Shown here: positions 1 through 22,428 of the stretch, one piece after another
How positions within the stretch are numbered: position 1 is the stretch's first letter
Layout: every line of letters begins with the position of its first letter
Assembly (NCBI GenBank): GCA_041687695.1
Contig: JAWLBL010000039.1
Span: forward strand, 1-59,386
Origin: Myxococcota bacterium
GTDB lineage: Bacteria > Myxococcota_A > UBA9042 > PHBI01 > JAWLBL01
DNA: 59,386 nt
Reading direction: 5' to 3'
Position numbers and translations under genes: made by a program
The notes under the pieces: generated by a model
Told to the model about the DNA's origin: nothing
Databases searched by the model: none
Seen by the model: only the letters and a program-made list of their open reading frames with translations

Positions 1-685
1 ACACTTCCCCTTCTACAGGGACCCGGTGGCCCTCGCACCCCCAGCCAGGCTGGTGACGCTCGGGCCGAGCCTCATACACCACGGGTTGGGACTCTATCCG
101 CAGAGCGTCCGCTTCGGTGTCCGACACCAACACCTGAAACTCCGGCGGAGCGACGATCTCCACCCGCAGCGCCACCCGGGTCCGCCCTCCTCCCATCGCG
201 CCACCAGCAGCCGCGCGTTCCCAGGCCGCGAGCCCGTGCTCCAACCCCACGAGCAGGACCTGCGAGCGTGGGAGTCCATGGAGCAGGCGCCAGGTGCTCC
301 CCGGCGGCTTCGGTGGAACATGGTAGGTTCGCTCGACCGCCAAGCCGGTCTTGCTCTCCTGGTCCGGTCCGGCGGTCATGGGCTCGGGTTCTTCGCCCCA
401 GCGGTGCCACCGGCCCCGGAGCTGCTCGGTCTTTGCCAGCCTCCGCTCACTCCGCGCGAACGCGCCGGTCAGGGTGGTCTTCGCGTGGACGTCGAGTCCC
501 AGGTCGCGCCGGACCTCGATCCGTAGGTCCTCGCGCCAGATGTGGCGTGGCTCGGCCGCTCGGCTCGAACCCGGTAGCCAGGCGAGGAGCACGGCCGCGA
601 TCGCCATCACCGGGAGCCATTGGCAGCTCCAGGGCGTGGCGAGCCGACTCGAAGAGGTCTTCAGCTTGATCGAAGGGGCGCCCAT
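1..685 (-). CDS. Putative secreted hypothetical protein, running off the left window edge
   Basis: Manual translation from ATG 685 (alternative 607) is stop-free to base 2: MGAPSIK...VMAIAAVLLAWLPGSSRAAEPRHIWREDLRIEV..., with a signal-peptide-like segment. It is absent from the ORF track because there is no stop in the window. Confidence 0.5.
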   Translation of the reverse strand, partial: MGAPSIKLKTSSSRLATPWSCQWLPVMAIAAVLLAWLPGSSRAAEPRHIWREDLRIEVRRDLGLDVHAKTTLTGAFARSERRLAKTEQLRGRWHRWGEEPEPMTAGPDQESKTGLAVERTYHVPPKPPGSTWRLLHGLPRSQVLLVGLEHGLAAWERAAAGGAMGGGRTRVALRVEIVAPPEFQVLVSDTEADALRIESQPVVYEARPERHQPGWGCEGHRVPVEGEV

Positions 686-741: not shown

Positions 742-770
742 TGGAAACGCCGCGGTGCACCCTTTAGTGT
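742..770 (+). promoter_or_regulatory. Candidate sigma70-type promoter for the mph leader
   Basis: TGGAAA (742-747), 17 nt, TAGTGT (765-770); the ATG at 778 lies 7 nt downstream, consistent with a leaderless start. Confidence 0.4.
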
Positions 771-777
771 ACGGGCC

Positions 778-804
778 ATGTTGCTGTTCGACCGGCTGCG
801 CTGA
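778..804 (+). CDS. Putative macrolide-sensing leader peptide MLLFDRLR
   Basis: atg ttg ctg ttc gac cgg ctg cgc tga; R-L-R at codons 6-8 as in ErmDL (MTHSMRLR); ends 163 nt before mph. Confidence 0.65.
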   Translation: MLLFDRLR

Positions 805-967
805 GGCCGCCGCCCCCCGGCTGGGGGGTGGCCGCTGAGCTCTGTTCCGCCCTCTCTTCTCTCCGAGAGGCCCGGGCCGGGGTTCGTGCGCCGGATGCTG
901 GACGCGACGTGCCGCGACGGGCGAGCGAAGCCGTGGCCCTGGGCCCTTCCGACCCAGGAGCTGTTCC

Positions 968-1885
968 ATGACGCGTGTTCCTACCTTGAATGAGCTGCTC
1001 GCCGAGGCCCGGGCGCATGGCCTCGCGCTGACGCCGACCACCGAGCTGGGGGGCTTCGGCCTGGACTTCGCGGTCGCGCAGGCGGCCGAGGCCGACGGGA
1101 CCGTCTGGATGCTGCGGACGCCGCGGCGCGACGACGTTTATGCGACGACGTTGGTCGAGGCGCGCGTGCTGGCGCTGGTGCGGCCGCACCTGTCGGCCGC
1201 GGTGCCGGAGTGGCGCGTGCACACGTCGTCGCTCATCGCCTATCCGCGGCTGTCGGGGACGCCGGCGGTGGTCATCGAGGACGGCGCGCCGCGCTGGCAG
1301 GTCATCGATCCGGCGGCGCCCTGCGAGCCGTTCCTGCGCTCGTACGCGCAGCTGCTGGCGGGGCTGCAGCGCGTGCCGCTCGAGGCCGCCGCGGCCGCCG
1401 CGGTCCCGGTCAAGGCCATCGCCGACGTGCGCGACGAGCACGCCCGCGCCATGGACCTCAACCGGGCCACGCTCGAAGTGCCGGAGCGGCTGTGGGCCCG
1501 CTGGCAGCGCTGGCTCGAAGACGACGCGCTGTGGCCGCCGTTCCTGGCGCTGGTGCACGCCGACCTGCACGCCGCGCACCTGCTGCTCGACGACGCGGGC
1601 CACGTCACCGGCGCCCTGGACTGGACCGAGGCCCACGTCGGCGACCCGGGCACCGACTTCGCCATGGCGTTCGGCACCTTCGGCCGCGCCGCGACCGAGC
1701 GCCTGGTGGCCGAGTTCGAGGCCACCGGCGGCCGCACCTGGCCACGCCTCATCGACCACGCCGCCGAGCGCTGGGCCGCCTTCCCGGCCCTGGGCGCCGA
1801 GTGGGCGCGCCGCACCGGCAACGACTTCGTCATGGACATGGTGCGCCAACGGGTCGCGACCACCGCGGCCGAGATGGCCGCGTGA
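968..1885 (+). CDS. mph: Macrolide 2'-phosphotransferase (Mph family, APH/kinase fold)
   Basis: Mph-typical motifs GLDF, WMLRTPRR, LWARWQRWLEDDALWP, HADLHAAH, LDWTEAHVGDP, GGRTWPRL; SD caggag upstream. Confidence 0.88.
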   Translation: MTRVPTLNELLAEARAHGLALTPTTELGGFGLDFAVAQAAEADGTVWMLRTPRRDDVYATTLVEARVLALVRPHLSAAVPEWRVHTSSLIAYPRLSGTPAVVIEDGAPRWQVIDPAAPCEPFLRSYAQLLAGLQRVPLEAAAAAAVPVKAIADVRDEHARAMDLNRATLEVPERLWARWQRWLEDDALWPPFLALVHADLHAAHLLLDDAGHVTGALDWTEAHVGDPGTDFAMAFGTFGRAATERLVAEFEATGGRTWPRLIDHAAERWAAFPALGAEWARRTGNDFVMDMVRQRVATTAAEMAA

Positions 1886-1936: not shown

Positions 1937-4780
1937 TCAGTCGAAGATGTAGTACCTGACGTCGTGGACCCAGGTGTCGCCGAGCACCGAGCCGTCGAAG
2001 CCGCCGAACAGGACGACCTCCTGGTTGGCCGCGTCGTAGGCGAAGCCCTTGACGTCACGCGGCGTGAAGACGTTGGCGGCCAGGGCCGGCGTCACGTCGA
2101 GCCACACGTCGCCGTCGAGCTCCCAGACGGCGGAGGTGAAGGTCGGCGAGACGCCGTCGCGCCCGCCGAACAGCACGAAGCGCCGGCCGATGGGGTCATA
2201 GACCAGGCCCGCGCGGTCCAGGACGCCGGGGGCGCTGGTCGCCGAGACCTCGTCCCAGGCGCCGGTGTCGACGTCGAGCTGCCAGGTGTCCTCGAACTGG
2301 TTGCCGGCCAGATCGACGCCGCCGTACATGAGCACGACCCGCTGCTCGGGATCCCAGGCCATCACGGCGTTCTGCCGGGCCGCCGGCCACGGGCCGACCT
2401 GCGGGACCTGATACCAGGCGCCGTCGTAGACGCGCAGGTCGTCGAAGACCTGCAGGCCGTTTTCGCCGCCGAAGACGACCAGCTCGCCGTCGGTCGCGAC
2501 CATCGCGGCGTTGCCGCGAGCCGCCGGCCAGGCCGGCCCGGGGAAGCCCGGCGTCAGGTCCGTCCAGTCGGTGCCGTCCCAGTGCCAGAGATCCCGCTGG
2601 TACGAGCCCCCGCTCAGGCCGCCGAACAAGTAGGCGCCGTCGCCGTCGTAGGCGTCGGCCATCGCGTGCCGCGTGCGGCCGCCGGGGTCCGTCGCGGTGG
2701 CCGAGCAGCTCCAGGCCGCCCCATCGAACAGGCACGTGTCCGGGGCCAGCACGCCGCCGCCGTCGCGCCCGCCGAACATCACGACCTCGCCGCGGTCCGC
2801 GTCGTAGGCCATGGCGTGCATCCGGCGCGCGGCCGGCTGCGCGCCGGTGACCTCCGTCCAGCGTCGGGTCGTGTGGAGCGTGCGCGTGCCGCCCAGGACC
2901 GGCGACATCAGGTCGCTGAACGCGAGATCCACGGTGTGTTCGCCGGCCGTGGTGGTCGCGAAGATCGGCTCGGGGTACTGCTGGTCGACGCCGTCGACGG
3001 TCCACTGGTACAGCACGAGGTCTCCGTCGGCGTCGGTGGCCTCGGCCGTCAGGCGAAACCGCCTGCACGTCTTCGGCGAGGCGCAGTTCACGCTGGGCTG
3101 CAGCCGCTCGGCCGTGGCGGAGACGAAGACCGGCGCCGAGTTGACCGGCACACCGCCGGACAGCGGCCAGGCGGGCGCCAGGGTCACGCCGCCGCGCCGA
3201 TCCGAGACGACCAGCACGACCCGGTCACCGACCCGGCTGGTGGTCATCGACGCGCCCCAGGCGAAGTCGGTCGGGTCGTAGGTCGCGTCCGTCCCGATGC
3301 GCCAGAAGTACAGGGGCGCCTCGGGGTCGTCGTCGGTCGCGGTCGCCGTGCAGGTCAGGTCGACGCCGGCCGCGCACGCCACACCCGTGATGGTGGGTCG
3401 GGTGTTGGCGGGGAGGAACGGACCGCGGCGCACCGCGACCTCGGCCCAGTCGGCGGTCGCGTCGACGACGCTGATGTACAGCTCCTCGTCGGGGTCCGAG
3501 TAGACGCGGTGAGGCAACAGAGCGCTGTCCTTCGAGTTCTTGGTGGGCGTCTCCTTGGTCGCGTCGACGACTTCGTTACCCCCGCCGCTGACCCGCTTGA
3601 CCATCACGCCTTCGCGCAGGATGCCCGGGATGTTTCCGTCGAAGGTGCCTCCGTCGCGCCGCGCCTCGACGTAGTAGGACTCGCCCGAGGCCAGCTCGAC
3701 CTTCACCCCCTTGCGCTCGTCCTCGTTGCGCGCCAGCGCGTAGACGGTGCCATCCCAGGACGTGGTGGCCGTGTCCACGAGGTCGACGTGCGTGGCCTCG
3801 AGCCAATCCAGGCGCAGCTTCTGCTTGACGCTGAAGTGACCGCGGTTGGCGGCGGCCCCCATCGTGTCGGTGAGATCGCCGTACTCGACGACTTCGCCAT
3901 CGATGGAGCTGATGTGGCTCGAGTGACCCAGCCCACCGGTGCCGCCTGGCAGGGCGTGGCCGATCTCGTGGACGAAGGTGCCCATCTTCGAGTTGCTGAA
4001 CGTGTCGAAGTTCTTCACCCACATGTAGTTGGTCTTCAGAGCGATGGCCGTGACGCAGTCGCTGGGGTCCGGGACGTTTTCGGTGAGCATGTCGCAGGCG
4101 CCGCCGAGGTCACCGGTGGGGCCCGAGCGCGCCATGGCGATGATGTTGTAGCCGGTGAAGTCGGGCGCGTGGTCGCCGCAGACGTCGGTCAGCACGCCCC
4201 AGTTGGCCCAGCCGGGCTTGCCCCAGACGTAGCGGTACCAGTGGCCGCCGGGCTTGGCGAACAGATCGATGTCGACGACCAGACGCCCATAGGAGGCCTC
4301 GCCGAACCAGTCGCGCATGTGCCCTTCGAGCGTCGCGTGGATGAGCGCCGTGTCATGGGCCCCGACGGCGCCGACGTCGGGATCGGCCGGCGAGTTGGCG
4401 CCGGACAGGTCGTGGAAGCCGTCCGCGTCGGCGTCGTCCGAGATCCCGTCGCCGTCCTCGTCCAGCGAGGGGTCGGGCTGCTCGTTGTTGAGCAGGACCA
4501 CGGCGATGCGGGTCCGCTCGCACCAGGTCCCGTTGCCGAGGGTCATCCCGCTGAGGGTGTAGCACTCGGGGGTGTCGGTCGGCGGCGGGGTGGGGTCGGC
4601 CGCGAGCGCCTCCTCGCAGCTCGTCGGGAGCGGCCACAGGAAGGTTGCGCCGGTGCAGGCGTGGGTGATGGGCGCGGCGAGCGCCGCGGTGGACCAGGTG
4701 ACGCCGACGGTCGCGGCGAGGGCCATCAGGCCCCCGAGCCGGCGGCGCGGTGAAACGCGAAGGGATCGATGCACGAACAT
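1937..4780 (-). CDS. Secreted M11/gametolysin-like zinc metalloprotease with Ig-like domains and a C-terminal Kelch beta-propeller
   Basis: Signal peptide (..TWSTAALA); HEIGH...GLGH and EYGDLTDTMG; six Kelch repeats (R..HAMAYD..VVMFGG..DT/W). Start is 4780 or 4726. Confidence 0.75.
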   Translation of the reverse strand: MFVHRSLRVSPRRRLGGLMALAATVGVTWSTAALAAPITHACTGATFLWPLPTSCEEALAADPTPPPTDTPECYTLSGMTLGNGTWCERTRIAVVLLNNEQPDPSLDEDGDGISDDADADGFHDLSGANSPADPDVGAVGAHDTALIHATLEGHMRDWFGEASYGRLVVDIDLFAKPGGHWYRYVWGKPGWANWGVLTDVCGDHAPDFTGYNIIAMARSGPTGDLGGACDMLTENVPDPSDCVTAIALKTNYMWVKNFDTFSNSKMGTFVHEIGHALPGGTGGLGHSSHISSIDGEVVEYGDLTDTMGAAANRGHFSVKQKLRLDWLEATHVDLVDTATTSWDGTVYALARNEDERKGVKVELASGESYYVEARRDGGTFDGNIPGILREGVMVKRVSGGGNEVVDATKETPTKNSKDSALLPHRVYSDPDEELYISVVDATADWAEVAVRRGPFLPANTRPTITGVACAAGVDLTCTATATDDDPEAPLYFWRIGTDATYDPTDFAWGASMTTSRVGDRVVLVVSDRRGGVTLAPAWPLSGGVPVNSAPVFVSATAERLQPSVNCASPKTCRRFRLTAEATDADGDLVLYQWTVDGVDQQYPEPIFATTTAGEHTVDLAFSDLMSPVLGGTRTLHTTRRWTEVTGAQPAARRMHAMAYDADRGEVVMFGGRDGGGVLAPDTCLFDGAAWSCSATATDPGGRTRHAMADAYDGDGAYLFGGLSGGSYQRDLWHWDGTDWTDLTPGFPGPAWPAARGNAAMVATDGELVVFGGENGLQVFDDLRVYDGAWYQVPQVGPWPAARQNAVMAWDPEQRVVLMYGGVDLAGNQFEDTWQLDVDTGAWDEVSATSAPGVLDRAGLVYDPIGRRFVLFGGRDGVSPTFTSAVWELDGDVWLDVTPALAANVFTPRDVKGFAYDAANQEVVLFGGFDGSVLGDTWVHDVRYYIFD

Positions 4781-5120
4781 CCTCACTCTCGCAGCCCGTT
4801 TGCTGCGCTGCAGTCGAGCGAACCCCGAAGCCGCGCCACACTCGTGAGCGCAACGGCTCGCCCTCTCGGTCGTTGGGACCGGAGGGGCGCCCGCGCCTGT
4901 CAACGCGCTCGCAGTGGACCCGCTGGGGCCCGCGCCGTTCGGGCGTCATCGGTCCTTACACGGCGTAACAGCGGGCGCGTCGAAGCGACGAGGCAACGCG
5001 AGCTCGAGCCCGTGTGTGGGTTCGCGCACAGTGCGTGCCACCCACCCACCCTTCGCAGAGGACGCGATGCACGAAGCCAAGCCGCAGGCCGTGATCGCGG
5101 ACTACCGCCGCAAGCGCTGA

Positions 5121-6140
5121 TCAGCGCGAGGCCTCGACCCGCCAGGTGCCCTCGCCCAGGTCGGTCAGGGTGAAGCGCGTCGGCAGAAAGCGCTGCGCGA
5201 CCTCGAGGTTGGTCGTCAGGTGGCTGGAGGGGCGGACGGTCGTGAAGCGGCCGCCGCCCGCCATCGCCAGCGGCAGCACCAGCTGGTCGGCCAGGTGCTC
5301 CTCGACCGCGGCCTCGCTCTCGAGCCACCGCTCCGCCGCGCCCGCGGCCTCGTCCGCGACCGCCTCGGCCGGCACGCCCCGCCGCCCGAAGCCCACGAAC
5401 ACCGCGGTCGGCGCGTCCGACTCGGCCTCGATGAACAGCGTGTTGCCCGCCGAGACGCTGTCGCGCGTGTGCTCGACCGTCCCCTCGACCTCGGGGCCGA
5501 GCCGCTCGGCGACCCGCGCCAGCTCGCGCCGGCCGATGTCCATCGGCAGATGCGCCAGATAGGCGCGGGCGCGCAAACGCCGCACTTCGCCGCGCTGCGT
5601 CAGGTCCAGCGGCCGCAGCCCACCCGCAGGCGGCACCACGTTCAGCACCAGCCGGCCGCCGCCGGCCGGGTAGAAGCCCGGCCGCTCCATGGTCAGCGTG
5701 ACCTCGGCGCCCATCCGCGCCAGCGCCGGCAGGAACGAGCGCGCGACGAAGTCGTAGGGCGGCGCGTGCTCGTTGTGGGTGCCGCCCTCGAGCACCACCC
5801 GCGAGGGCCCCGAGGCCGCCAGCAGCGGCGGCAGCACGGTCTGCATCACCAACGTCGCGCTGCCGGCGGTCCCGATCGCGAACCGGTACTCGCCCGGCCG
5901 CACCTCGCCGGGGTGGAAGGTCAGCGCGGTCGACCGCAGCTCGGCGCCCTCGACCCGCCCGCCGCAGATGGCCGCCGCGGCCTCCACCGCGGTCAGGTGC
6001 TGGCGCGCCAGGCCCGGCTTGGACCGGTTGGCCCGGATGCGCTCGATGCGGAAGGGCCGCCCGGTCAGGATGGACAGCGACAGCGACGAGCGCAGGATCT
6101 GCCCGCCGCCCTCGCCCATCGCGCCGTCTAGGATCAACAT
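5121..6140 (-). CDS. rtcA: RNA 3'-terminal phosphate cyclase
   Basis: MLILDGAMGEGGGQILRSSLSLS, IRANRSKPGLARQHL, GGTHNEHAPP, GFYPAGGG, EHLADQL, SHLTTN. Confidence 0.97.
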   Translation of the reverse strand: MLILDGAMGEGGGQILRSSLSLSILTGRPFRIERIRANRSKPGLARQHLTAVEAAAAICGGRVEGAELRSTALTFHPGEVRPGEYRFAIGTAGSATLVMQTVLPPLLAASGPSRVVLEGGTHNEHAPPYDFVARSFLPALARMGAEVTLTMERPGFYPAGGGRLVLNVVPPAGGLRPLDLTQRGEVRRLRARAYLAHLPMDIGRRELARVAERLGPEVEGTVEHTRDSVSAGNTLFIEAESDAPTAVFVGFGRRGVPAEAVADEAAGAAERWLESEAAVEEHLADQLVLPLAMAGGGRFTTVRPSSHLTTNLEVAQRFLPTRFTLTDLGEGTWRVEASR

Positions 6141-6192
6141 GGTTCGGCTCCGGTCTTCGTGTCCGCCGCAGGTTAGTAGCACGCGCCGACCT

Positions 6193-6208
6193 TGCACGCG
6201 CCATGCCA
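6193..6208 (-). promoter_or_regulatory. sigma54 (-24/-12) promoter of rtcA
   Basis: Minus strand TGGCATGGCGCGTGCA = GG-N10-GC, about 50 nt upstream of the ATG. Confidence 0.75.
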
Positions 6209-6281
6209 GCCCGCCAGGCCACGGGGTTCGCCGCCCAGAGCGGTCGCAAAGTCGCCAATGGATTCGCCACGCCTCGCGTCC

Positions 6282-6423
6282 AGCGCGGCGAGCCGCGCTA
6301 CGCCGGAGCACGAGCGAGCTCGTGCAGTCCGGTCGTCGCTCTCTGAGGTGGATCCTTGGCGGCGAGTGTTGACGGACTGCCCCAGCTCGCTGGGGCTCGA
6401 GGGCCCGCGCAGCTCGCTGCGCG
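6282..6423. repeat. Inverted doublet of double-hairpin REP-like elements (CGGACT head)
   Basis: Minus copy 6282-6331 and plus copy 6373-6423; each is CGGACT-stem8-TC-stem8, a linker, then a second hairpin; related copies at 23477-23603 and 52261-52309. Confidence 0.8.
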
Positions 6424-6479
6424 CAACGCTCGACGGACTTTGCGATGGCCCTGGTTCGCCGCCGGGCCGGGCGCGCTGG

Positions 6480-6503
6480 TATCCCCTGGGATAATGGTCT
6501 ATC
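6480..6503. promoter_or_regulatory. Candidate RtcR upstream activator or autoregulatory site
   Basis: TATC-ccctgg-GATA-atggtc-TATC; same spacing as 9601-9624. Confidence 0.55.
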
Positions 6504-6512
6504 ACCTGGGCC

Positions 6513-8135
<1,623 letters not shown>

Positions 8136-8214
8136 CCGCCGCCCTCGGACACCGGGAGCTGCGCCGACCGGAGAGGACGCACGCACGCGCGCGCGCTCCG
8201 GCCGGCGACCGCCC

Positions 8215-9444
8215 TCACCCCTTCACGCAGAGCACCTGGCGCAGCGTGTGCACGACGTCGACGAGATCCGCCTGGGCGGCCATCACGGCGTCGATGGGCT
8301 TGTAGGCCCCGGGCGTCTCGTCGATGACCTCGGCGTCTTTACGGCACTCGACGCCGGCGGTCGCCGCCGCGTGCTCCTCGAGCGTGAAGCGCTTTCGCGC
8401 CGCCGTCCGGCTCATCAGCCGCCCGGCGCCGTGGCTGCAGCTGTGGAAGCTGTCGGGGTTGCCTCGCCCGCGCACGATGAACGACCGCGCGCCCATGCTG
8501 CCGGGGATGATGCCCAGCTCGCCCTCGCGCGCCCGCACCGCGCCCTTGCGCGTCACCCAGACGTTCTCGCCGAAGTGGTGCTCGCGCGACACGTAGTTGT
8601 GGTGGCAGTTGACCGCCTCGACCCGCGCCTCGAAGGGCCGCAGCTCGCCCGAGCCGGCCAGCGCCCCCAGCACGGCCGCCATCATCACCTCGCGGTTGTG
8701 CATGGCGAAGTCCTGCGCCCAGGCCACCGCCTCGACGTAGGCGCCGAAGTGCTGCGACCCCTCGGGCAGGTAGGCGAGGTCGCGGTCCGGCAGCTGCACG
8801 TGCCAGCGCTCCATCTCGCGCCGCGCCAGCTCGATGAAGGTCGTCCCGATGCGGTTGCCCACCCCGCGCGACCCGCTGTGCAGCATCACCCACACGCGCT
8901 CGGCCTCGTCCAGGCACAGCTCGATGAAGTGGTTGCCGGTCCCGAGCGTGCCCAGGTGCTGCGCCGTGTTGGCCTGCGCCAGCTTCGGATACCGCTCCAC
9001 CAGCGCCCGGAAGCCCGGCTCGAGCCCCTTCCACACCTCGGCCACCGCGTCGGGCACCTCGCCCCAGGCGCCCCGGTCGCCGCGGCCGCCGTGGTGGGTC
9101 CGCCCGTGCGGCACCGCGCGCTCGATGGCCGCTCGCAGCCCGCCCAGCGCGTCCGGCAGGTCCGCCGCGCCGAGGCTGGTCCGCACGGCCATCATCCCGC
9201 AGCCGATGTCGACCCCGACCGCCGCCGGGATGATCGCCTTGCGGGTCGGCACCACCGACCCGACCGTCGCCCCGAGGCCCACGTGCACGTCCGGCATCGC
9301 CGCGACCCACCCGTGCACGAACGGCAGCGACGCCGTCCGCTCCAGCTGCTCCATCGCCTTCGGCTCGACCGGCACGCCCCGCGTCCAGGCCTTGATCATC
9401 CCCGCGCCGCGGCGCAGGACCTCGTGAGAGTTCGTCGTGCTCAT
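8215..9444 (-). CDS. rtcB: RNA-splicing/repair ligase RtcB
   Basis: AMPDVHVGLGATVGSV, AVGVDIGCGM, LGTLGTGNHFIE, LHSGSRG, NCHHNY, IPGSMG, SCSHGAGR, DETPGAYK, LCVKG. Confidence 0.98.
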   Translation of the reverse strand: MSTTNSHEVLRRGAGMIKAWTRGVPVEPKAMEQLERTASLPFVHGWVAAMPDVHVGLGATVGSVVPTRKAIIPAAVGVDIGCGMMAVRTSLGAADLPDALGGLRAAIERAVPHGRTHHGGRGDRGAWGEVPDAVAEVWKGLEPGFRALVERYPKLAQANTAQHLGTLGTGNHFIELCLDEAERVWVMLHSGSRGVGNRIGTTFIELARREMERWHVQLPDRDLAYLPEGSQHFGAYVEAVAWAQDFAMHNREVMMAAVLGALAGSGELRPFEARVEAVNCHHNYVSREHHFGENVWVTRKGAVRAREGELGIIPGSMGARSFIVRGRGNPDSFHSCSHGAGRLMSRTAARKRFTLEEHAAATAGVECRKDAEVIDETPGAYKPIDAVMAAQADLVDVVHTLRQVLCVKG

Positions 9445-9496
9445 CGTCTCGTCCCGTTCCTCATCGGTCGCCCCAACCGGCGACGCAGGGCTACAA

Positions 9497-20799: not shown

Positions 20800-22428
20800 A
20801 TGCCCGCCTTCGAGAGCGTCTTCGAGCAGATCGCGGCCATCCTGGCCCTGGCCGCGCTGTTCGGCGGCGTCTCGCTCGTCCTGCGCCAGCCGCCCATCGT
20901 CAGCTTCATCGCCCTCGGCGTCGTGCTGGGGCCGTCCGTCCTCGGCTGGACCGCCGCCGACGACGAGGTCCACCTGCTCGCCCAGGTCGGCGTCTCGGTG
21001 CTGCTGTTCCTGGTCGGCCTCGACCTCGATCTCGCGCTGGTCAAGCGCACCGGCCCCGTCGCGGTCGCCACGGGGCTCGGGCAGGTCGTCTTCACCTCGG
21101 CCTTCGGTTACCTGCTCGCCCTCGCCTTCGGCCTGACCCCCATCCCGGCGCTGTACGTCGCCGTCGCCCTGACGTTCTCCAGCACGATCATCATCGTCAA
21201 GCTGCTCAGCGACAAGCGCGAGCTCGAGGCCCTGCACGGCCGCATCGCCGTCGGCTTCCTCATCGTCCAGGATCTGCTGGTCATCCTGGTCATGGTCGCC
21301 CTGACCGCCCTCGCCAACCCCTCCGGCGGCCCCGACCTCGCCGCCTTCGCCCTCGGCAGCCTCGCCTTCCTGCTGGGCGTCCTCGTCAGCGCCCGCTGGC
21401 TGCTCCCCCCGCTGGTCCGCGCCCTGTCGCGCTCCTCCGAGCTGCTCGTCTTCCTGGCCCTCGCCTGGGCGGTCCTGCTCTCCGTCGTCGCCGAGCGCAT
21501 CGGCCTCAGCCGCGAAATAGGCGCCTTCCTCGGCGGCGTCTCCCTGGCCAGCTCGCCCTTCCGCGACGCCATCGGCGCCCGCCTGGTCGGCATCCGCGAC
21601 TTCCTGCTGCTCTTCTTCTTCATCGACCTCGGCGCCCTCATCGATCTGTCGGCCCTGGGCCCCGACCTCGGCGCCGCCCTGACCCTGTCCGCCTTCGTCC
21701 TCATCGGCAACCCCCTCATCGTCATCCTCATCATGGGCGCGATGGGCTACCGCAGCCGCGTCTCCTTCCTGGCGGGGCTGACGGTCGCCCAGATCAGCGA
21801 GTTCTCCCTCATCCTCGTCACCCTCGGCGCCCAGCTCGGCCACGTCGACCGCGACGTCGTCGGCCTCGTCACCGCGGTCGGCCTGGTCACCATCGCGCTG
21901 TCGAGCTACCTCATCCTGTACTCCCACCCGCTGTACGAGCGCCTCGCCCCCTTGCTGCGCGTCTTCGAGCGCGCGCCCACCTCGCGCTCGCCTCGCGAGC
22001 CCGCCACCGGCCCCAAGCCCGAGGTCCTGGTCTTCGGCCTCGGCCGCTACGGCGGCCGCATCGCCGACGGCCTCGCTCGCCTCGGCCGCACCGTCGTCGG
22101 CTTCGACCACGACCCCGCCGCGGTCGATCGCGCCCAGGCCCGCGGCCTGAGCGCCCGCTACGCCGACGTCGCCGACCCCCACCTCATGGAGCACCTGCCC
22201 CTGGCCGAGGCGCGCGTCGTCGTGTGCGCGCTGCCCGAGCCGCTGGCCGCGCGCCGCCTGGTCACGGAGCTGCGCCGCCAGGGCTTCCGCGGGCTGGTCG
22301 TCGCCCGCGTCGACGCCACGGGCGCATGCGAGCAGCTCCAGGCGGCCGGTGTCGATCGCTTCCTCGAGCCCTTCGAGGCCGCCGCCGACGTCGCCATCGC
22401 CGAGCTGGCGGAGCTGTCGGCCGCCTGA
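20800..22428 (+). CDS. CPA2 cation:proton antiporter with C-terminal TrkA-N/RCK domain
   Basis: Many TM helices; FSSTIIIVKLL, LIVQD, QISEFSLIL, FGLGRYG. Confidence 0.9.
   Translation: MPAFESVFEQIAAILALAALFGGVSLVLRQPPIVSFIALGVVLGPSVLGWTAADDEVHLLAQVGVSVLLFLVGLDLDLALVKRTGPVAVATGLGQVVFTSAFGYLLALAFGLTPIPALYVAVALTFSSTIIIVKLLSDKRELEALHGRIAVGFLIVQDLLVILVMVALTALANPSGGPDLAAFALGSLAFLLGVLVSARWLLPPLVRALSRSSELLVFLALAWAVLLSVVAERIGLSREIGAFLGGVSLASSPFRDAIGARLVGIRDFLLLFFFIDLGALIDLSALGPDLGAALTLSAFVLIGNPLIVILIMGAMGYRSRVSFLAGLTVAQISEFSLILVTLGAQLGHVDRDVVGLVTAVGLVTIALSSYLILYSHPLYERLAPLLRVFERAPTSRSPREPATGPKPEVLVFGLGRYGGRIADGLARLGRTVVGFDHDPAAVDRAQARGLSARYADVADPHLMEHLPLAEARVVVCALPEPLAARRLVTELRRQGFRGLVVARVDATGACEQLQAAGVDRFLEPFEAAADVAIAELAELSAA

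What the first reader, a model, noticed from the sequence alone, without database searches (positions are those of the whole stretch)
742..970. Hidden RLR leader peptide and alternative hairpins: a probable macrolide-induced attenuator for mph
Seen: an 8-codon uORF MLLFDRLR* (778-804), too short for the ORF track, whose ATG sits 7 nt after a TAGTGT -10-like box. A 10-bp GC hairpin follows (809-832). The segment cctggg (938-943) can pair with cccagg (953-958), covering part of the mph SD, or alternatively 926-945 can pair with 869-886. Established: macrolides stall ribosomes at Arg/Lys-X-Arg/Lys motifs, and ErmDL (MTHSMRLR) has RLR at the same codons 6-8; enterobacterial mphA is instead controlled by the repressor MphR. 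Inference: this mph, with no mphR nearby, is induced by ribosome stalling on a probably leaderless uORF.
Basis: partly seen in the sequence, partly recalled or inferred. Interest (0 to 1): 0.8.

Follow-up and report, generated by a model that had tools for sequence, protein, structure and literature searches.

The report
Macrolide-sensing leader peptide before mph
A tiny eight-codon gene ending in Arg-Leu-Arg-stop sits in front of a macrolide-inactivating kinase gene and recurs in most of its closest relatives, so it is very probably a ribosome-stalling drug sensor of a known kind, here on a gene family and a group of bacteria (myxobacteria) where it seems undescribed, though this copy may be a weakened one.

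Summary
The uORF MLLFDRLR* (778-804), the promoter-like boxes and the hairpins are present as described. The downstream gene (968-1885) is a true Mph homologue, with no MphR(A) match in the genome. A start-x3-8-R[LFR]R-stop uORF precedes the first gene in 34 of 80 homologous loci (27 of 63 clusters; 24 of 30 scorable rows of the window's clade). Controls: 23 of 5372 genes of this genome, 0 of 30 housekeeping hflX loci. In HflX-Mph fusions it moves ahead of the fusion start (12 of 13). A -10-like box lies 6-7 nt before the start in 14 of 23 clusters, supporting a leaderless uORF. Masking the uORF flips the modelled fold as proposed, but the gain in SD access (about 2 kcal/mol) is not clearly beyond shuffles (8 of 80). 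Missed caveat: this copy alone (1 of 27) has Asp before RLR, a change that weakens ErmDL stalling. Verdict: an RLR-class macrolide leader like Mef(E)L/ErmDL in a new setting (stand-alone mph, myxobacteria, probably leaderless, probably translational). Nothing was shown experimentally; no RNA run was listed. The scan already found this leader family on other DNA (e1-6869913).

The parts
742..747 (+). -35-like hexamer TGGAAA, 17 nt before the -10-like box
   Evidence: Weak alone (one search finds no promoter). 9 of 23 homologue clusters have a TT-starting -35 at 17-18 nt from a -10-like box placed 6-7 nt before the uORF.
765..770 (+). -10-like hexamer TAGTGT, 7 nt before the uORF ATG; implies a start at about 778 (leaderless uORF; inferred)
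   Evidence: nAnnnT lies 6-7 nt before the start in 14 of 23 clusters against a mean of 1.06 at 16 other offset pairs. Genome-wide, TAnnnT peaks 6-9 nt before ATG (59, 70, 44, 32 against 1-13 at other offsets; 5435 ATG candidates).
778..804 (+). uORF MLLFDRLR*, with the +X+ arrest motif at codons 6-8 and the stop directly after
   Evidence: Asp5 is unique among 27 clusters.
805..833 (+). segments A and B: the GC hairpin (809-818:823-832) just after the stop; its 5' arm lies at the edge of a stalled ribosome's footprint
   Evidence: A helix at the same place in 15 aligned leaders is 79.8% paired, with two-sided changes at 2 of 6 pairs; the window's own row is out of register there.
835..860 (+). 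segment C (pyrimidine-rich): pairs with D in the unmasked fold and with B when A is masked
   Evidence: expected pairs C:D about 17 unmasked, 2-7 masked; B:C 0 unmasked, up to 8.6 masked. B:C is not supported across homologues.
   Evidence: D:E about 1 pair unmasked, 13-17 masked. It aligns with a conserved GGAAG..GGGCGCGG block of homologous leaders.
926..949 (+). segment E (anti-SD arm, includes CCTGGG 938-943)
   Evidence: In homologues E pairs with either D (81.1% of cells) or the SD (88.0%).
953..960 (+). segment F: CCCAGG and the mph Shine-Dalgarno AGGAG (956-960)
   Evidence: E:F is 6.2-6.5 expected pairs unmasked and 0.1-2.1 masked.
968..1885 (+). mph-like macrolide 2'-phosphotransferase, 305 aa
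   Evidence: Solved MphA E 1e-58. NCBIfam Mph models score 166-213 bits, all below their cut-offs. Pfam APH. The HxD...H...D motif aligns with MphA.

Best explanation
A drug-sensing translational attenuator. Transcription starts at or next to the A of 778 (inferred), so a ribosome initiates on a leaderless 8-codon uORF. Without drug it finishes and leaves at once, and the leader folds as A:B, C:D, E:F, with the anti-SD arm E closing the mph SD. A macrolide- or ketolide-bound ribosome stalls with Leu7 in the P site and Arg8 in the A site (inferred from ErmDL). It covers the uORF and the 5' edge of A, the fold shifts to D:E, and the SD is loosened so that Mph is made and phosphorylates the drug. 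Shown here: the anatomy, the conservation, the absence of an MphR(A) match and the direction of the modelled switch. Inferred: start site, translation, stalling, induction and enzyme activity.
For: Conservation: 34 of 80 loci, 27 of 63 clusters, against 1 of 80 reverse complements, 0.62 expected from shuffles, 0 of 46 downstream windows, 23 of 5372 own-genome genes and 0 of 30 housekeeping hflX loci. The uORF sits before the fusion start in 12 of 13 fetched hflX-mph loci. It is present in 24 of 30 scorable rows of the window's clade (SH-aLRT 100, quick tree). The Arg and Leu codons vary synonymously across clusters, and stops are TGA 21, TAA 3, TAG 3. The MphA-like clade lacks the leader, and the five non-plasmid MphR matches (L021, L022, L044, L179, L180) all lie there. 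Leaderless spacing. Fold flip. Conserved alternative helices: 83.4% and 81.1% of cells paired against 41-65% for slid partners; covariation score reached by 2 and 10 of 500 shuffles. No intrinsic terminator. RLR stalling at codons 6-8 of ErmDL (PMC8298421 section 6); Mef(E)L is 8 codons ending RLR and its Arg8 is needed for induction (PMC4335068).
Against: Asp at position 5 is found in 1 of 27 clusters. In ErmDL, Met5 to Asp or Glu lowers telithromycin stalling, position 4 tolerates only Ser, Ala or Gly with erythromycin, and a frameshifted N-terminus abolishes stalling. The cost of opening the SD falls only from 7.2 to 4.8 kcal/mol (or 9.0 to 7.5 with coding sequence), and 8 of 80 shuffled leaders do as well. 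The SD stays mostly paired in the masked model (unpaired probability 0.01-0.23). Across 27 leaders the release exceeds 1 kcal/mol in 13-14 and goes the wrong way by more than 1 in 4-8. A local SD hairpin beats shuffles (z > 1.64) in only 5 of 27. The helices were picked by eye from the same 15 sequences, which are related. In held-out loci the pattern was found in 2 of 7 scorable ones (2 of 3 within the clade).
Confidence: 0.55

Rival explanations
1. A weakened or decayed sensor: the element descends from the family's RLR attenuator, but with Phe4-Asp5 this copy stalls little or only with some drugs, so mph is poorly inducible or runs at a fixed low level.
For: Asp5 is unique among 27 clusters; the others are Ile 18, Met 3, Leu 2, Val 2, Ala 1. 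ErmDL scan data. The window's Mph is on a long branch (0.61) and is the only match in 107 genomes of its class. A decayed leader ending IRQP-stop exists at L134.
Against: Start codon, promoter spacing, RLR, stop and the alternative helices are all intact. Phe or Tyr at position 4 is natural in 14 of 27 clusters, so ErmDL context rules do not transfer simply. The mph frame is intact with GC3 0.95.
Confidence: 0.22
2. The same sensor with another output: stalling controls Rho-dependent termination or mRNA stability rather than SD access.
For: The modelled SD release is small. Mef(E)L and hflXr leaders act on transcription, and stalled ribosomes stabilise the mef mRNA. A pyrimidine-rich tract lies at about 839-865.
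Against: No intrinsic terminator. The leader has no C-over-G skew (62 C, 62 G) and the pyrimidine tract is paired in the model. An anti-SD helix is kept across homologues (88.0% paired).
Confidence: 0.17
3. The conserved uORF senses something other than macrolides, such as general translation stress or arginyl-tRNA shortage.
For: HflX is fused to Mph in many homologues, and Listeria hflXr responds to lincomycin as well as erythromycin.
Against: The regulated gene is a macrolide kinase homologue. Arg codons are mostly common ones (CGC, CGG). The peptides resemble Mef(E)L and the leader before msr(E)-mph(E).
Confidence: 0.04
4. A chance short ORF in GC-rich DNA.
For: Arg codons are frequent at 73% GC; the promoter and the fold are not significant on their own.
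Against: The background rate is 0.43% of genes, against the conservation shown.
Confidence: 0.02

Closest known systems
Mef(E)L / MefAL leader of mef/mel(msrD), Streptococcus (PMC4335068; passages and Table 3 read)
   Same: 8 codons, RLR at 6-8, stop directly after; upstream of a macrolide resistance gene. Homologue L067 differs from it at one residue.
   Different: Mef(E)L has its own SD and controls a Rho-independent terminator. Here there is no SD before the uORF, no terminator, and the target is a kinase gene in a myxobacterium. Table 3 of the paper lists no mph gene.
ErmDL of ermD/ermK, Bacillus (PMC8298421; passages and sections 6, 8 and first part of 11 read)
   Same: RLR at codons 6-8; the model for the stall (Leu7 in P, Arg8 in A).
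   Different: ErmDL continues past RLR in its 14-codon form, has Ser4-Met5 where this has Phe4-Asp5, and controls an rRNA methylase.
Leaders of msr(A)-mph(C) and msr(E)-mph(E) operons
   Same: A short +X+-stop uORF lies 230 nt before msr(A) and 275 nt before msr(E) on the plasmids fetched. The msr(E) one, MHSIRIR*, differs by one residue from the Sorangium So ce56 mph leader. So mph genes can already sit under such leaders as second genes.
   Different: There the leader precedes an ABC-F gene and mph follows; no such uORF lay directly before mph(C), mph(E), mph(A) or mphM.
rli80 leader of Listeria hflXr (PMC6310831; abstract and passages read; SI Table S3 not readable)
   Same: RLR uORF ahead of an hflX paralogue, paralleling the hflX-mph fusions in the homologues.
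   Different: 14 codons, transcriptional attenuation, no Mph fusion.
mph(A)-mrx-mphR(A) repressor system
   Same: An Mph enzyme, about 40% identical.
   Different: Controlled by a TetR-type repressor. MphR(A) has no match in this genome, and loci with MphR homologues lack the leader.

Membership tests
RLR (+X+) macrolide leader peptides (ErmDL, Mef(E)L, Msr(A)L) | short uORF in the 5' leader of a macrolide resistance gene | tested here: met
   stop is 163 nt before an mph homologue.
RLR (+X+) macrolide leader peptides | Arg/Lys-X-Arg/Lys motif a few codons after the start | tested here: met
   Codons 6-8; same register as ErmDL and Mef(E)L.
RLR (+X+) macrolide leader peptides | motif conserved ahead of homologous genes | tested here: met
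RLR (+X+) macrolide leader peptides | N-terminal context that permits stalling (modulating rather than defining) | tested here: inconclusive
   Phe4-Asp5 is unfavourable by the ErmDL scan; Phe4 is common in homologues, Asp5 is 1 of 27.
RLR (+X+) macrolide leader peptides | mutually exclusive RNA folds linking the stall to expression | tested here: inconclusive
   The modelled flip is present and helices are conserved, but energies are not clearly beyond shuffles.
RLR (+X+) macrolide leader peptides | uORF translated; drug-dependent stall; induction of the gene | not testable with these tools
   Needs toeprinting, ribosome profiling or reporters.
Mef(E)L / hflXr-type transcriptional attenuators | intrinsic terminator between uORF and gene | tested here: not met
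   0 terminator-like sites in 1-2500.
Mef(E)L-type leaders | Shine-Dalgarno before the leader ORF | tested here: not met
   none in the 7 nt between the -10-like box and the ATG.
MphR(A)-repressed mph operons | mphR gene beside mph | tested here: not met
   No tblastn match of MphR(A) in the genome at E 0.01; the only TetR_N match on this contig is at about 54,500.
Mph macrolide 2'-phosphotransferases | APH-family sequence with the catalytic and metal-binding motifs | tested here: met
named Mph families (A, B, C, E, F, G, L, M) | NCBIfam curated cut-off | tested here: not met
   166-213 bits against cut-offs of 500-650.
Mph macrolide 2'-phosphotransferases | phosphorylates macrolides | not testable with these tools
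   Needs an enzyme assay.

The most novel reading that the evidence does not exclude
Myxobacteria carry their own macrolide-response module: a leaderless minimal RLR-stop uORF and a multi-hairpin translational cascade that control either a stand-alone Mph or an HflX-Mph fusion (ribosome splitter plus drug kinase in one chain), as the alternative to MphR repression. The natural spread of residues before RLR (27 clusters, including this Asp5 outlier) tunes which macrolides or ketolides induce each locus, so this copy would be a sensor with shifted drug range rather than a decayed one.
Probability: 0.25. Interest if true: 0.65.

Novelty: new variant of a known kind. Interest (0 to 1): 0.45.

Why it matters
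It would extend ribosome-stalling induction from erm, mef, msr and hflXr genes to direct control of a drug-inactivating kinase, in environmental myxobacteria, and on a leaderless message. It suggests that mph genes split between two control schemes by clade: stalling leader or MphR repressor. The 27 natural leader variants are a ready panel for an open question, why ribosomes stall at some +X+ motifs and not others. The mechanism class itself is well known, which caps the surprise.

Tried and rejected
Direct pairing of the uORF with the downstream leader as the general switch: it appears in the window's lowest-energy fold, but only 3 of 27 leaders beat shuffles and the window's duplex was no better than any of 40 shuffles; rejected as a general claim. 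A B:C helix as a conserved relay: 71.9% paired but no covariation (416 of 500 shuffles as high); kept for the window's model only. RNAalifold on the 15-leader alignment gave only 6 pairs. Rfam: no match at E 5 for 600-1100. Consensus promoter and terminator scan: none. Sequencing runs: no RNA holder listed, so no reads were laid. The genome's two hflX genes have no RLR leader. The careful tree did not finish; the quick tree is used. Literature searches (listings seen) showed no title or abstract start on a stalling leader directly before mph, on myxobacterial mph control, or on HflX-Mph fusions. Ramu 2009 and Sothiselvam 2014 and 2016 were not held, and SI Table S3 of PMC6310831 could not be read. 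These compile leader peptides, and I recall that the 2009 review lists putative leaders for mph(B) and mph(C); that is unverified and could lower the novelty.

Full report
Observation. The 305-aa ORF is an Mph homologue: E 1e-58 to solved MphA, 166-213 bits on eight Mph models but below every cut-off, with the catalytic motif aligned. Its closest named relatives are 52-58% identical proteins from Sorangium, Polyangium, Labilithrix, Pendulispora and Nannocystis. The genome shares its phylum with these but is the only one of 107 genomes in its class with a match. Its Mph falls inside a myxobacterial clade (SH-aLRT 100; quick tree, careful search unfinished). Horizontal gain of gene plus leader is a fair inference, not a tested one.

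Conservation. The pattern (ATG/GTG/TTG, 3-8 codons, R-[L/F/R]-R, stop) was defined after seeing the first hits. It lies within 450 nt of the first gene in 34 of 80 loci, or 27 of 63 clusters at 85% identity. These counts include the window. Of 88 loci, 8 were dropped for having under 250 nt upstream and no uORF, and 3 with under 250 nt were kept because they had one; without those 3 the count is 31 of 77. Controls: 1 of 80 reverse complements, 0.62 expected from shuffles, 0 of 46 downstream windows, 23 of 5372 gene-like ORFs of the own genome, and 0 of 30 housekeeping hflX loci. Seventeen loci are in-frame HflX-Mph fusions (Pfam on one of them). In 12 of the 13 re-fetched with more flank, the uORF has moved ahead of the fusion start, so it belongs to the transcription unit. 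In the window's clade 24 of 30 scorable rows have it. Loci fetched later as a held-out set gave 2 of 7 scorable, 2 of 3 inside the clade. It also occurs in a second myxobacterial clade (L043, L127) and in lower-GC loci with a normal SD before the uORF (L063, L071, L075). Kin are not independent, so these are not p-values.

Regulator. MphR(A) finds nothing in the own genome. It does match beside five homologues, L021, L022, L044, L179 and L180, all in or next to the MphA clade and all without the leader. Flanks were mostly 1.5 kb, so mphR may be missed at other loci.

Leaderless start. The window's promoter is weak by consensus. In homologues an nAnnnT hexamer sits 6-7 nt before the uORF start in 14 of 23 GC-rich clusters, against about 1 at other offsets, and 9 of these also have a TT-starting -35 at 17-18 nt. 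Genome-wide, TAnnnT peaks 6-9 nt before ATG codons, so this layout is normal for the organism. I put a leaderless start at about 0.8. It is inferred; no RNA run was available.

RNA switch. An alignment of 15 leaders shows matching blocks. The OFF set is 83.4% paired and the D:E helix 81.1%, against 41-65% for slid partners, with covariation scores reached by 2 and 10 of 500 shuffles. These helices were chosen by eye from the same related sequences, and the window's row is partly out of register. Against the reading: the SD opening cost drops only about 2 kcal/mol and 8 of 80 shuffles match that; SD occlusion is typical for this genome; the SD re-pairs with early coding sequence in the masked model; across 27 leaders the release is over 1 kcal/mol in 13-14 and reversed in 4-8; direct uORF pairing and B:C are not general. 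The direction of the switch is plausible; its strength is not shown.

The Asp5 caveat. The residue before RLR is Ile, Met, Leu, Val or Ala in 26 of 27 clusters and Asp only here. In the ErmDL scan, Asp or Glu at this position lowered telithromycin stalling, only small residues at position 4 kept erythromycin stalling, and a frameshifted N-terminus with RLR intact did not stall (PMC8298421, sections 6, 8 and first part of 11). Phe or Tyr at position 4 is common in this family (14 of 27), so the rules do not transfer directly, but this copy may be weaker or retuned. I could not check the codon against reads.

Known relatives. Mef(E)L has the same length and RLR-stop end but its own SD and an intrinsic terminator (PMC4335068, passages and Table 3; also bioRxiv 10.1101/2021.11.29.470318, passages). 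Listeria hflXr has an RLR leader (PMC6310831, abstract and passages). On fetched plasmids, +X+-stop uORFs precede msr(A)-mph(C) and msr(E)-mph(E), while none lies directly before mph(A), mph(C), mph(E) or mphM. Rfam has no match. PMC11264731 (passages) lists stalling-regulated resistance genes without mph; PMC13410324 (passages) added nothing on mph. Ten searches (listings only) showed no paper on this arrangement. Three key papers and one supplementary table were not available, so novelty in print is provisional. This scan had already reported the leader before an hflX-mph fusion in another genome (e1-6869913) and a leaderless +X+ uORF before erm(38) (e1-2651501).

Verdict. It works like an RLR-class macrolide leader and meets the sequence features of that class; functional membership is untested. 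It is not a Mef(E)L-type terminator attenuator and not an MphR system. That the element descends from such a sensor: about 0.95. That this copy works as a translational attenuator as described: 0.55. New variant of a known kind; interest 0.45.

Noticed in passing
L116-L128, L051, L052, L102, L103 (also L181-L183): In-frame HflX-Mph fusion proteins of about 750-830 aa open frame in several myxobacterial lineages; Pfam HflX domains plus APH on L117. They occur in two separate Mph clades. Searches showed no paper on them.
   Followed up: partly
L143:668-691 (plasmid NZ_CP044447.1): An unannotated 7-codon uORF MHSIRIR* 275 nt before msr(E)-mph(E), one residue from the Sorangium So ce56 mph leader. 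A search for msrE, mphE and leader peptide found 0 papers.
   Followed up: partly
own genome, all contigs: TAnnnT is strongly enriched 6-9 nt before ATG codons, suggesting that leaderless genes are common in this myxobacterium.
   Followed up: partly
G000:C16, about 21,000-22,300 (L140): A second hflX, closer to the fusion-type HflX (41-46% identity) than to housekeeping HflX, stands without Mph and without an RLR leader, right after another gene.
   Followed up: partly
window 5121-9447: rtcA, rtcR and rtcB (RNA repair cluster) lie 3 kb from mph; no link tested.
   Followed up: no
window 2-685, minus strand: Divergent ORF of at least 228 codons, GC3 0.82, no Pfam match, running off the contig end; it shares the 686-777 intergenic stretch with the mph promoter.
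   Followed up: partly
window 1937-4783, minus strand: Large convergent protein with a weak M6 metalloprotease match and repeated C-terminal units that look kelch-like (label recalled, not tested).
   Followed up: no
L134, about 3764-3796 on the mph strand: A leader-like uORF ending IRQP-stop with the family's post-stop motif, apparently a decayed copy.
   Followed up: no
L063, L071, L075: SD-led RLR-stop leaders before mph in lower-GC metagenome contigs, followed by hairpin and T-run sequences that look like terminators (not scanned).
   Followed up: no
L021, L022, L044, L179, L180: MphA-like genes with MphR homologues in Myxococcota genomes, without the leader.
   Followed up: partly
L175, just upstream of mph: No short leader; the upstream gene ends in RLRR-stop overlapping the mph start. 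Probably coincidence.
   Followed up: no
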